Shown in pieces: positions 894 through 10,209 of a DNA stretch of 64,000 nucleotides (positions are counted from its first letter, which is position 1; each line of letters begins with the position of its first letter). The stretch is from a virus, in IMG/VR virus record IMGVR_UViG_3300020470_001313, positions 1 to 64,000 of that record; one strand, given 5' to 3'. A model generated the notes under the pieces. It ran no database searches. It was given only the letters and a program-made list of their open reading frames with translations, and was not told where the DNA came from. Made by a program: the position numbers and the translations under genes.

Positions 894-979
894 CTCTGAG
901 GGTAGGAGTTGAACCTACAAGTCCCGCCAGGAACAATAGATAAACGGTCTATCGCGTTTGCCAGTTTCGCCACCTCAGA
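894..979 (-). tRNA. Atypical tRNA, anticodon GTT (Asn), long variable arm, no encoded CCA
   Basis: TCTGAGG/CCTCAGA acceptor stem, D-arm GCG-AAACTGGCAAA-CGC, anticodon stem ATAGA/TCTAT with loop CCGTTTA, variable arm GTTCC-TGGC-GGGAC, T-arm GTAGG-TTCAACT-CCTAC, discriminator G. Confidence 0.85.
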
Positions 980-8767: not shown

Positions 8768-8955
8768 TAGTGATATTCATCTAATATATCTAGGGCATTA
8801 TTCAATGCCAGTTGTGCTGCCCATCTCTCTTTATCATCCCACTCAGGATACCATGACTTGCTATCTATATTACGTTTAAGTTTCAGTAAACGTGCAGTCA
8901 TGTCCACTTTGGACAGTCGGCCATTCACTTTAGGGACTCCTGAACTTTTTGCCAA
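8764..8955 (-). CDS. Hypothetical protein
   Basis: Coupled ORF downstream of talC. Confidence 0.6.
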   Translation of the reverse strand: MAKSSGVPKVNGRLSKVDMTARLLKLKRNIDSKSWYPEWDDKERWAAQLALNNALDILDEYHY

Positions 8956-9584
8956 TCAGCATCAAAGAGTTCTAAACCCTTATCAGTTAGAATATGTTTG
9001 TACATTCCTTTGAATACCTTAATGGGTAGTGTACAAATGTCAGCACCATATTCAAATGCTCTACCTACATCTCTTACATTTCTTATAGATGCTGCTAAGA
9101 TCTCAGTACCTTCCCACTTCTGTTTAGCAAACACATTAGCAATATCTTTTACTAGGCATAACCCACCAAATGAATTGTCATCTACACGTCCTACAAATGG
9201 TGACACATACTTAGCACCTGCCTTAGCAGCAAGGATTGCCTGTGTCTGAGAAAATACTAAGGTTACATTAACTGGTATATCATTGTTAGATAATTCTTTG
9301 CATACCATCAGACCTTCTGGGGTGCATGGTACTTTGATTGTAATGTTTGGTCCTATATTCACATACTGTTCTGCCATCTCTAGCATCTCCCACTGATCAC
9401 CTATAACTTCAGCAGATATAGAAGCATTCCAAGGAAATACATTAGAGATCTCTTTGATTACTTCCACTGGATCTCTACCTGACTTAGCCATCAGTGAGGG
9501 ATTGGTGGTCACACCATCAATCAAACCAGTATCAAATAACTCCGTGATTTCTTTAGTATCTGAAGAGTCCAGAAAAATTTTCAT
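8925..9584 (-). CDS. talC: Transaldolase (TalC/FSA family)
   Basis: MKIFLDS, GVTTNPSL, ITIKVP (Schiff-base Lys), YVSPFVGR, ILAASIR. Confidence 0.97.
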   Translation of the reverse strand: MKIFLDSSDTKEITELFDTGLIDGVTTNPSLMAKSGRDPVEVIKEISNVFPWNASISAEVIGDQWEMLEMAEQYVNIGPNITIKVPCTPEGLMVCKELSNNDIPVNVTLVFSQTQAILAAKAGAKYVSPFVGRVDDNSFGGLCLVKDIANVFAKQKWEGTEILAASIRNVRDVGRAFEYGADICTLPIKVFKGMYKHILTDKGLELFDADWQKVQESLK

Positions 9585-9618: not shown

Positions 9619-9647
9619 AAAAAAAGAGACCCTGCAATGGGTCTCTT
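9619..9647 (-). terminator. Intrinsic terminator after DUF4278 gene
   Basis: AAGAGACCC-loop-GGGTCTCTT followed by a T-run on minus strand. Confidence 0.8.
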
Positions 9648-9667: not shown

Positions 9668-9793
9668 TTATGAAGCCGTCGCAAGTTCCTTTTTGAACTT
9701 CACACCACGATAGGCCAGTTCTGGCTTTAATTTCGTAGCTTTCTTTTGCTTGTCGGTGTCATATTTAACACCACGGTATGTGACTTGTGCCAT
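9668..9793 (-). CDS. DUF4278-type small basic protein (41 aa, not in track)
   Basis: MAQVTYRGVKYDTDKQKKATKLKPELAYRGVKFKKELATAS; two YRGV repeats; AGGAG RBS at 9805-9801. Confidence 0.85.
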   Translation of the reverse strand: MAQVTYRGVKYDTDKQKKATKLKPELAYRGVKFKKELATAS

Positions 9794-9826
9794 GATAGTA
9801 CTCCTGTAGGATTAGGTTTATGAAAC

Positions 9827-10047
9827 CGTTCCTTCAGTCGGCATTTGCGTCCCAACATCCGTCCGTTTCTTCTTTCACAATCTGAATCATCTCAGATCGT
9901 GTCTCTTCTTCCACCTTATACTTACTCATTTTATCAACGAGTAGGTGTGCGTCAGAACAGGATAAAGAAGTAGCGATTAAAATAGGAATCATGGGATGAA
10001 CGTATCCGTTCCGTGTCGGCTTACTTGCGTCTCCTTAGAGATGAACG
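9827..10047 (-). ncRNA. Tandem glnA-type (glutamine riboswitch-like) aptamers
   Basis: Aptamer 1 (10047-10007): CGTTC-A-TCTC-TAAG-GAGA-CGCAAGTAAGCCGACACG-GAACG. Aptamer 2 (10002-9827): CGTTC-A-TCCCA-[long loop]-TGGGA-CGCAAATGCCGACTGAAG-GAACG. Confidence 0.7.
9834..9992 (-). CDS. 52-aa ORF nested in second aptamer
   Basis: MIPILIATSLSCSDAHLLVDKMSKYKVEEETRSEMIQIVKEETDGCWDANAD, open from the P2 5' strand to the TGA in the aptamer junction. Confidence 0.65.
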   Translation of the reverse strand: MIPILIATSLSCSDAHLLVDKMSKYKVEEETRSEMIQIVKEETDGCWDANAD

Positions 10048-10074
10048 TTAAAAGGTATGTTAGCATACCCACAT

Positions 10075-10209
10075 CTATTTATCAATCTTTTTTGTATCTT
10101 TCGTAACATTTTTCTTTCCTGCTTCCCATAACATCATCAAACCCTCCTTTTCTAAGGGTGATGTGTCAAATTCACTTAAGAGTTCTTCATATTTCTCTTC
10201 CGCTTTCAT
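10075..10209 (-). CDS. Hypothetical protein (44 aa)
   Basis: MKAEEKYEELLSEFDTSPLEKEGLMMLWEAGKKNVTKDTKKIDK fills the intergenic gap. Confidence 0.45.
   Translation of the reverse strand: MKAEEKYEELLSEFDTSPLEKEGLMMLWEAGKKNVTKDTKKIDK

What the first reader, a model, noticed from the sequence alone, without database searches (positions are those of the whole stretch)
9827..10047. Tandem glutamine-riboswitch-like aptamers with a whole protein-coding ORF inside the P2 loop of the second aptamer
Seen: two repeats of CGTTCA-[stem]-CGCAA...GCCGAC...GAACG. In copy 1, P2 is TCTC-TAAG-GAGA. In copy 2, the P2 strands TCCCA and TGGGA are about 135 nt apart. The ATG of a 52-codon ORF overlaps the 5' P2 strand, its last codons (W-D-A-N-A-D) are the aptamer 3' half, and its TGA lies within GCCGACTGAAGGAACG. 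Established: glnA-type aptamers bind L-glutamine and often occur in tandem in cyanobacteria and marine metagenomes. Inference: aptamer 2 folding would sequester the nested start codon, and a translating ribosome would unfold aptamer 2. This makes a mutually exclusive switch that could couple glutamine level, the nested peptide and the downstream DUF4278 gene. I do not know of a description of this architecture.
Basis: partly seen in the sequence, partly recalled or inferred. Interest (0 to 1): 0.85.

Follow-up and report, generated by a model that had tools for sequence, protein, structure and literature searches.

The report
Gene nested inside cyanophage glutamine riboswitch
In this marine cyanophage, and in many related phage sequences, one hairpin of a glutamine-sensing RNA switch closes around a real 52-codon protein gene, so nitrogen sensing and translation of that gene probably compete on one RNA; I found no paper that describes this layout.

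Summary
On the minus strand a sigma-70-type promoter is followed by a compact glutamine-I aptamer (10049..10003). A second aptamer follows, with its 5' half (10002..9990) and 3' half (9854..9827) 137 nt apart. Between them lies a 52-codon ORF. Its ATG sits in the P2 5' strand, and its last codons and TGA are aptamer core. A DUF4278 (IF17-like) gene and a terminator follow.

- **The ORF is a real gene.** It matches phrog_504. Median dN/dS is 0.27, against 0.87 and 1.51 in the shifted frames. Distant relatives are free-standing genes.
- **The split aptamer is conserved RNA.** P1 and P2 are kept in 69 of 69 units, and P2 covaries. Core letters are fixed at synonymous sites, and the RNA is kept even where the reading frame differs.
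- **The layout is common.** Among 120 IMG/VR contigs taken by the aptamer-1 3' half, aptamer 2 is split in 76 of 111 resolved. Aptamer 1 is split in 32 of 103, by a homologous gene family.
- **The stop codon lies in an anti-SD hexamer.** The nested stop codon sits inside CU[G/A]AAG, which pairs with the DUF4278 ribosome-binding region.

The regulatory coupling is inferred, not shown. This scan has noted the same layout on other genomes (134 notes, at least 89 genomes). I found no published description.

The parts
10094..10107 (-). NtcA-box-like GTT-N8-TAC. It starts 60 nt before the aptamer-1 CGTTCA and lies within the 3' end of the upstream ORF.
   Evidence: Read. A strict GTA-N8-TAC is present in 75 of 100 unique upstream regions of related loci, with the commonest position at -59. 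The window's copy is one letter off consensus.
10057..10085 (-). Sigma-70-type promoter TTGATA-17-TAACAT with a TG extension. It ends 9 nt before the aptamer-1 CGTTCA.
   Evidence: Equivalent promoters lie upstream in P-SSM7, S-PM2, P-HM1 and the IMG/VR loci.
10003..10049 (-). Aptamer 1, a compact glutamine-I (glnA-type) aptamer: P1 CGTTC/GAACG and P2 TCTC-TAAG-GAGA.
   Evidence: Rfam RF01739 at 31.4 bits, E 7e-5 locally and 4e-6 in the whole record. P2 covaries among relatives: TCTC/GAGA, ACCTC/GAGGT, GTCC/GGAC.
9990..10002 (-). Aptamer 2, 5' half: P1 strand CGTTC, an A, then P2 strand TCCCA running into ATG.
   Evidence: Columns 2-8 of alignment A2 are invariant in 69 sequences.
9834..9992 (-). 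Nested gene, 52 codons plus TGA. It belongs to phrog_504, called 'T4-like GC 430' in the P-SSM7, P-SSM4 and S-SSM7 records.
   Evidence: phrog_504 at E 1.4e-12. dN/dS is 0.27 in frame against 0.87 and 1.51 out of frame, and column entropy by codon position is 0.77/0.44/1.20. There are 280 cluster representatives. The AlphaFold2 model is a small three-helix protein.
9827..9854 (-). Aptamer 2, 3' half: P2 strand TGGGA, CGCAAATGCCGAC, TGAAG and P1 strand GAACG. It also encodes W-D-A-N-A-D-stop.
   Evidence: The codons here are fixed at synonymous sites. The variants seen (CGC/CGG/CGA-AA) are changes that alter the amino acid, not synonymous ones.
9831..9837 (-). Anti-SD segment CTGAAGG, which contains the nested stop codon TGA (9836..9834).
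   Evidence: CU[G/A]AAG pairs 6 of 6 with a hexamer 15-17 nt before the DUF4278 ATG in 95 of 122 unique sequences. In the window, CUGAAGGA pairs with UCCUACAG (9811..9804) with one A-A mismatch; I paired this by hand.
9794..9826 (-). Linker holding the anti-SD partner and the Shine-Dalgarno AGGAG (9805..9801).
9668..9793 (-). DUF4278 (IF17-like) gene, 41 codons, with two YRGV motifs.
   Evidence: Pfam PF14105 at 27.0 bits (cut-off 25.3). phrog_5049 at E 8.6e-15. A YRG-type ORF follows aptamer 2 in 108 of 108 resolved loci.
9624..9647 (-). Intrinsic terminator: 9-bp stem followed by a T run.

Best explanation
This is a self-contained nitrogen-status cassette of a T4-like cyanophage. In order it holds an NtcA-like box, a promoter, two glutamine-I aptamers in tandem, a DUF4278 (IF17-like) gene and a terminator.

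SHOWN:
- Aptamer 2 is a conserved aptamer whose P2 hairpin closes around a real protein-coding gene.
- That gene's ATG is part of the P2 5' strand. Its last six codons are the aptamer's junction, and its stop codon lies in CU[G/A]AAG.
- CU[G/A]AAG is complementary to the sequence abutting the DUF4278 Shine-Dalgarno.

INFERRED:
1. While RNA polymerase transcribes the roughly 140-nt loop, the nested start site is open and is translated.
2. Once the 3' half is made, P2 and P1 close. With glutamine bound they hold the nested start codon shut, which switches the nested gene off.
3. The folded, glutamine-bound aptamer also captures CU[G/A]AAG. This frees the DUF4278 ribosome site and switches DUF4278 on, as in the Synechocystis gifB switch.
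4. Ribosomes on the nested gene keep aptamer 2 unfolded. On reaching the stop codon they melt the anti-SD helix, so translation of the nested gene can also open DUF4278.
5. One RNA thus gives two outputs that depend on glutamine and on translation.
For: - Anatomy.
- The same layout occurs in P-SSM7, P-SSM4, S-SSM7, P-HM1 and P-RSM6 and in 83 of 83 parsed IMG/VR relatives.
- Coding selection on the interior, and free-standing homologues elsewhere.
- RNA selection on the halves. Tail codons are fixed at synonymous sites. In L077 and several database proteins the ORF crosses the same aptamer letters in another frame.
- Long-range P1 and P2 are predicted by RNAalifold with no broken pair in 69 sequences. 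99.7% of cells pair, against at most 69% when the partner is slid.
- P2 covaries. Matched strands give a mean of 6.2 bp against 3.9 for mismatched partners, and 91% against 30% reach 5 bp. Forms include TCCTCA/TGAGGA, TCTATGG/CCATAGA and TCACTAT/ATAGTGA.
- Predicted P2 probability is 0.82 in natural sequences against 0.49 after synonymous-codon shuffling.
- The uninterrupted aptamer 2 of P-TIM68 reaches the Rfam gathering score.
- The anti-SD helix covaries with the stop codon type.
- The ON-switch logic comes from Klahn et al. 2018, PMC6212724.
Against: - Nothing here shows glutamine binding, ribosome occupancy or regulation.
- P1 is invariant, so it carries no covariation evidence. The nearest-neighbour model prefers a swapped pairing, with aptamer 1's 3' strand on aptamer 2's 5' strand. 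The predicted probability of P1 in cis is about 0.
- P2 covariation within the window's own clade is thin: 3 cells with a change on both sides.
- In the window the anti-SD helix has a mismatch.
- Close relatives with and without the nested gene coexist, so the riboswitch does not need the gene.
- The sequences compared are related, so the statistics are not independent samples.
Confidence: 0.55

Rival explanations
1. Passenger gene in a permissive loop. The distal P2 loop is the one place in a compact leader where an insert does not harm the aptamer. A small phage gene settled there and gets free early expression. Genome compaction then trimmed the spacers until start and stop overlapped the aptamer. 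The riboswitch works as in phages without the gene, and no coupling is selected.
For: - P2 length already varies from 12 to 32 nt in intact aptamers.
- Intact and split forms coexist in related phages and in RNA-library contigs.
- The protein family also exists as ordinary free-standing genes.
Against: - In 76 of 76 split aptamer 2 units and 29 of 32 split aptamer 1 units, the ORF starts inside or next to the P2 5' strand, with no Shine-Dalgarno of its own in the loop. It ends in the aptamer core.
- Some P2 helices bury the ATG in 11-12 bp.
- Synonymous sites appear tuned for P2 closure.
- Physical competition between ribosome and fold is unavoidable in this geometry.
Confidence: 0.25
2. Daisy chain. 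Each aptamer controls the next gene. Aptamer 1's 3' P1 strand (GAACG) toggles between its own 5' strand and the identical CGUUC of aptamer 2, which lies 6-9 nt before the nested ATG. Glutamine on aptamer 1 therefore opens the nested gene's start site. Aptamer 2 then controls DUF4278 through the anti-SD helix. Both genes are glutamine-ON.
For: - The GAACG-loop-CGUUC hairpin is in the minimum-free-energy fold and dominates predicted ensembles.
- All 120 surveyed loci have the second CGTTC within a few nt of the first GGAACGG.
- The anti-SD logic for aptamer 2 is supported.
Against: - The same adjacency exists in phages whose aptamer 2 holds no gene, so it is not specific to the nested gene.
- The strands are invariant, so there is no covariation.
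- Nested genes in aptamer 1 have no aptamer upstream.
Confidence: 0.15
3. Relic aptamer. The split aptamer 2 no longer binds glutamine. Its halves are conserved only as coding sequence, as a translation start context and as the anti-SD element.
For: - Rfam does not detect it.
- The 3' half deviates from the consensus: CGCAAA instead of CGGAAGUA.
- P1 in cis is not predicted by the energy model.
Against: - The same deviating core in uninterrupted form reaches the Rfam gathering score.
- The noncoding 5' half is invariant.
- P2 covaries across 140-190 nt.
- The letters are kept when read in another frame.
Confidence: 0.07
4. The insert is an untranslated RNA domain, and the open frame is incidental.
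For: The ORF has no obvious Shine-Dalgarno.
Against: - Substitution follows codon positions, and dN/dS is 0.27 only in this frame.
- Length changes are all in whole codons.
- Homologous free-standing genes have their own ribosome sites.
- RNAalifold finds no conserved internal structure beyond two small hairpins.
Confidence: 0.02

Closest known systems
Glutamine-I riboswitch (glnA RNA motif, Rfam RF01739), e.g. the Synechocystis gifB (IF17) leader (Klahn et al. 2018, PMC6212724). Tandem copies were noted by Weinberg et al. 2010 (PMC2864571).
   Same: It has the same P1 (CGUUC/GAACG), the same P2 hairpin position and the same junction letters. It has the same downstream gene family (DUF4278, IF17-like), a tandem arrangement, and a 3' segment that can pair with the ribosome-binding region.
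   Different: Here P2 closes around a whole protein-coding gene that shares its start, last codons and stop with the aptamer. In some phages both aptamers do this. The phage cores deviate from the consensus (CGC instead of CGG, and a G after GAACG). Rfam scores sit at or just below the gathering score, and the split form is invisible to the model.
Glutamine-II riboswitch (Downstream-peptide motif, RF01704) with the yfr6 / DUF4278 genes of marine picocyanobacteria.
   Same: It shares the CGUUCA...GGAACGG core, the host group and the downstream YRG-type peptide. Aptamer 1 also gives a weak hit (26.5 bits, gathering score 33).
   Different: The type II pseudoknot hairpin around GGAACG is not convincingly present. 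No gene is nested in type II.
Homing-endonuclease or maturase ORFs in peripheral loops of group I and II introns, e.g. the phage T4 td intron (from my own knowledge).
   Same: A protein gene sits in a distal loop of a structured RNA, which must still close the helix around it. Forms with and without the ORF coexist.
   Different: Those ORFs are mobile-element genes that serve the intron. Here the RNA is a metabolite sensor, and the ORF's start and stop codons are built from the sensor's conserved core.
The Salmonella mgtA leader with the short ORF mgtL (Park et al. 2010, from my own knowledge), and attenuator leader peptides.
   Same: Translation of an ORF inside a sensing leader decides which RNA fold forms.
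   Different: mgtL is a sensor peptide of 17 codons with no function of its own. Here the nested gene encodes a conserved 50-68 aa protein family that also exists as a free-standing gene.
Dual-function RNAs such as SgrS/SgrT and RNAIII/hld (from my own knowledge).
   Same: One RNA carries both a structured regulatory function and a small protein gene.
   Different: Those are trans-acting sRNAs whose two functions lie side by side. Here the letters themselves are shared.

Membership tests
Glutamine-I riboswitch (RF01739): aptamer 1 | Covariance-model score at or above the gathering score (35 bits) | tested here: not met
   31.4 bits, E 7e-5 on 601 nt and 4e-6 on the 150-kb record. It is significant but under the curated cut-off. 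Relatives score 31.0-34.9 bits.
Glutamine-I riboswitch (RF01739): aptamer 1 | P1 and P2 helices with conserved junction letters, and P2 supported by covariation | tested here: met
   P2 varies with compensation among relatives.
Glutamine-I riboswitch (RF01739): aptamer 2 (split) | Covariance-model match | tested here: not met
   There is no hit at E up to 10. The model cannot span a 137-nt insert. The same core without the insert scores 35.4 bits in P-TIM68 and 33.3 bits in S-PM2.
Glutamine-I riboswitch (RF01739): aptamer 2 (split) | P1 and P2 pairing conserved, with P2 covariation | tested here: met
   69 of 69 sequences keep all 9 pairs. Matched P2 strands give 6.2 bp against 3.9 bp for mismatched ones, and many compensated forms occur. 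P1 never varies, so it is uninformative.
Glutamine-I riboswitch: both aptamers | Selective binding of L-glutamine | not testable with these tools
   This needs in-line probing, ITC or a crystal structure.
Glutamine-I riboswitch: both aptamers | Position in the 5' leader of a nitrogen-related gene (DUF4278/IF17-like) | tested here: met
   DUF4278 scores 27.0 bits against a cut-off of 25.3. A YRG-type ORF follows in 108 of 108 loci, at a median of 34 nt.
PHROG phrog_504 (the nested protein) | Profile match over the full length | tested here: met
   E 1.4e-12, residues 1-51 on profile positions 1-53 of 53.
NtcA-regulated promoter | GTA-N8-TAC box at a fixed distance from the promoter | tested here: inconclusive
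   The window has GTT-N8-TAC at the conserved position. 75 of 100 unique relatives have the strict box, mostly at -59 from CGTTCA. By my count the box centre lies about 10 nt further upstream than in the canonical class II arrangement.

The most novel reading that the evidence does not exclude
T4-like cyanophages use a class of riboswitch in which the aptamer and a protein gene are written in the same letters. The fold of a glutamine sensor and the translation of the gene inside its P2 helix exclude each other. The nested stop codon sits in the anti-SD element of the next gene. One leader therefore computes two protein outputs from glutamine level and ribosome traffic. The unit (aptamer plus nested gene) has been duplicated, giving phages with a gene inside each of two tandem aptamers.
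Probability: 0.45. Interest if true: 0.9.

Novelty: new variant of a known kind. Interest (0 to 1): 0.85.

Why it matters
- **Phage riboswitches may be undercounted.** A 2017 survey reported only two glutamine aptamers in cyanophage genomes and concluded that phages rarely use riboswitches (PMC5473149). Here part of the 521-nt query matches 178 phage records. A pattern scan of IMG/VR hit its 120-contig limit, and most units there are split forms that covariance models cannot see.
- **The architecture appears undescribed.** A metabolite aptamer that must fold around, and shares letters with, a translated gene would give a natural system for studying competition between ribosomes and ligand-dependent RNA folding.
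- **It points to a role for a large unknown protein family.** The family has 280 clusters at 50% identity. The nesting ties it to the nitrogen status of the infected cell, next to an IF17-like candidate regulator of glutamine synthetase, in some of the most abundant viruses of the ocean.

Tried and rejected
- Rfam at gathering threshold finds only a tRNA in the window. Even at E up to 10 it does not see aptamer 2.
- Pfam gives nothing for the nested protein; the ParB hit at E 0.027 is noise.
- tblastn with the single protein finds only 6 phage records. The family is too divergent for single-sequence search.
- The AlphaFold2 model (pLDDT 72) has no match to a protein of known function in BFVD; the best E-value is 0.025, and the hits are uncharacterised cyanophage proteins. 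The ESM Atlas gives only unnamed viral clusters.
- RNAalifold finds no conserved structure inside the ORF beyond two small hairpins.
- A second promoter-like site inside the ORF (9955..9928) is at chance level.
- The RNA runs hold only 4% of the words. Laying them gave contigs of relatives, some with and some without the insert. They cannot show a transcript, its ends or its level.
- Ames and Breaker 2011 and Ren et al. 2015 are not held. I could not check whether either mentions large P2 inserts.
- Earlier agents of this scan describe the two cores as 'interlocked'. I could not test this, because the P1 strands are invariant and identical in both aptamers.
- I did not search cellular genomes for split aptamers.

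Full report
**1. What is in the window**

The record is an IMG/VR virus contig of 150,607 bases. Its gene content is that of a T4-like cyanomyovirus: talC at 9584..8925, a 2OG-Fe(II) oxygenase, and nrdB. The closest matches are Prochlorococcus and Synechococcus myoviruses.

The feature lies on the minus strand. In order it holds:
- a promoter, TTGATA-17-TAACAT (10085..10057);
- aptamer 1 (10049..10003);
- the 5' half of aptamer 2 (10002..9990);
- a 52-codon ORF (9992..9834);
- the 3' half of aptamer 2 (9854..9827);
- a 33-nt linker with AGGAG;
- a 41-codon DUF4278 gene (9793..9668; Pfam 27.0 bits against a cut-off of 25.3);
- a terminator (9647..9624).

A pattern search of both strands finds no other such unit in the window.

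**2. Aptamer identity**

Rfam aligns aptamer 1 end to end to the Glutamine model at 31.4 bits. That is below the gathering score of 35, but E is 7e-5. Aptamer 2 is not reported, since the model cannot bridge 137 nt.

Phages S-PM2 and P-TIM68 carry the same tandem pair with an ordinary short P2 in aptamer 2. There Rfam scores the second aptamer at 33.3 and 35.4 bits. The window's two halves are those same letters. The split unit is therefore this aptamer with an insert in the distal end of P2.

**3. The insert is a gene**

The ORF matches phrog_504 (E 1.4e-12). It is annotated as 'T4-like GC 430' in the P-SSM7, P-SSM4 and S-SSM7 records, where the same architecture is present.

A protein search gave 75 clusters. 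A scan of IMG/VR gave 152 contigs, of which 80 were fetched.

For 66 distinct ORFs, interior codons give a median dN/dS of 0.27. The two shifted frames give 0.87 and 1.51. Column entropy by codon position is 0.77/0.44/1.20. ORF lengths of 51 to 59 codons differ by whole codons.

A profile search of 1.84 billion representatives finds 280 clusters. The three distant members whose context I checked are ordinary free-standing genes with their own ribosome sites and no aptamer halves. The protein therefore has a life of its own.

AlphaFold2 gives a small three-helix protein (pLDDT 72) with two invariant cysteines. The aptamer-encoded tail has low confidence. No function could be assigned.

**4. The halves are under RNA selection**

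- In all 83 relatives that could be checked, CGTTCA lies 3-8 nt before the ATG, and the stop (TGA or TAA) lies in GACT[G/A]AAGGAACGG.
- In the tail, TGT, GAC and GAC are fixed in every sequence that has them. The Ala codon is GCA in 60 of 66. Its only variants are GGA and GAA, which change the amino acid; no synonymous GCN codon occurs.
- In L077 and several database proteins, the ORF crosses the same aptamer letters in a different frame, ending ...YETQKPTEGTG. The RNA is unchanged and P2 is compensated as TCTCAT/ATGAGA.
- RNAalifold on 69 units predicts the long-range P1 and P2 unaided, with no broken pair. 99.7% of cells pair, against at most 69% when the partner is slid.
- Within this clade covariation is thin, because the 3' strand also encodes Trp-Asp.

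**5. An unbiased survey**

I scanned IMG/VR for the 3' half of aptamer 1 only.

- All 120 contigs have a second CGTTC right after the first aptamer.
- Aptamer 2 is split in 76, intact in 35 and unresolved in 9. All 76 split units hold an ORF running from the P2 5' strand to a stop in the 3' half.
- Aptamer 1 is split in 32, intact in 71 and unresolved in 17, with an ORF found in 29 of the 32.
- Both aptamers are intact in only 21 contigs.

P-SSM4 and P-HM1 show the doubly split form. In P-HM1 the aptamer-1 ORF ends ...G-R-K-stop, which is GGA CGC AAG TAA of the aptamer core. The same ending appears in most aptamer-1 ORFs of alignment A3.

Across 64 distinct split aptamer 2 units, matched P2 strands form a mean of 6.2 contiguous pairs, against 3.9 for mismatched partners. 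91% against 30% reach 5 bp. There are many compensated forms, some burying the ATG in 11-12 bp.

The families nested in aptamer 1 and in aptamer 2 are homologous over the Cys-to-Cys core (hhalign 90%, E 1.6e-6). Blastp links them directly. This suggests that the aptamer-plus-gene unit was duplicated as a whole.

**6. Folding**

In partition-function folds, the long-range P2 has a mean predicted probability of 0.82 in natural sequences. After shuffling synonymous codons inside the ORF it falls to 0.49. The natural value is higher in 134 of 168 shuffles, with Wilcoxon p 1.3e-5. The sequences are related, so this p-value overstates the support.

P1 in cis is not predicted. The energy model prefers the hairpin between aptamer 1's GAACG and aptamer 2's CGUUC. 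Because both P1s are invariant and identical, sequence comparison cannot settle this.

**7. Expression platform**

The hexamer CU[G/A]AAG contains the nested stop codon and the first G of GGAACG. I tested whether it pairs with the DUF4278 ribosome-binding region.

In 122 distinct sequences the best partner lies 15-17 nt before the ATG in 118. It forms 6 of 6 pairs in 95. The partner has a C opposite position 3 only when that position is G, never when it is A. In the window the helix is CUGAAGGA with UCCUACAG and one mismatch.

This fits the ON-switch logic shown for the Synechocystis gifB riboswitch, where glutamine binding frees the ribosome site (PMC6212724). It also means that a ribosome finishing the nested gene would melt the same helix.

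**8. Promoter context**

A strict GTA-N8-TAC (NtcA box) is present in 75 of 100 distinct upstream regions, mostly 59 nt before CGTTCA. About 0.02 per region would be expected by chance (my estimate). The window has GTT-N8-TAC at that place.

**9. Mechanism**

The shared letters and conserved pairings are shown. The rest is inference.
- The nested start site is open while the loop is being transcribed.
- It is closed by P2 and P1 once the 3' half exists, more firmly with glutamine bound.
- The folded aptamer frees the DUF4278 ribosome site.
- Ribosomes on the nested gene prevent folding, and at the stop codon they open the same site.

The rivals are a passenger gene without selected coupling, a daisy chain in which aptamer 1 controls the nested gene, a relic aptamer, and an untranslated insert. 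They are weighed in their own sections.

**10. Literature and earlier notes**

Weinberg 2010 and its supplements, Klahn 2018, McCown 2017 and the cyanophage genome papers that mention the riboswitch do not describe a nested gene. McCown 2017 reports only two glutamine aptamers in cyanophage genomes. Two key papers were not available.

This scan has noted the same layout 134 times, in at least 89 other genomes.

Noticed in passing
L002:390-626 (P-SSM4) and L085:365-596 (P-HM1): Aptamer 1 is also split in these phages. It holds a 66-67 codon gene ('T4-like GC 429') whose ATG lies in the P2 5' strand. Its stop is TAG in the P2 3' strand (P-SSM4) or the TAA of CGCAAGTAAG (P-HM1). These phages therefore carry a gene inside each of two tandem aptamers.
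   Followed up: yes
L077:1490-1673; proteins P0138, P0164, P0177: Some family members read the aptamer 3' half in a different frame, ending ...YETQKPTEGTG and stopping after P1. The RNA letters are kept and P2 is compensated.
   Followed up: partly
L209:701-883, L211:429-590, L212:701-877: Distant homologues of the nested protein are free-standing small genes with their own ribosome sites. They overlap downstream genes and lie in contigs without glutamine aptamer halves. I did not identify what these contigs come from.
   Followed up: partly
L086:857-1042 (P-RSM6): A manA RNA motif (RF01745, 188 bits) lies directly after the DUF4278 gene and its terminator, before talC.
   Followed up: no
window 894-979 (-): This is a tRNA (46.9 bits) with a long variable arm. 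Other notes of this scan on the same window discuss its odd anticodon loop.
   Followed up: no
window 10068-10078 (-), and upstream regions of L088-L207: A T4-late-promoter-like ATAAATA or CTAAATA motif overlaps the spacer of the sigma-70-type promoter in the window and in many relatives. The cassette might be transcribed both early and late.
   Followed up: no
window 10047..9827 (-): Aptamer 1's 5' half could also pair with aptamer 2's 3' half (TCTC with GGGA, 4 bp including a wobble). This would be an alternative outer fold enclosing everything. It has no covariation support.
   Followed up: no
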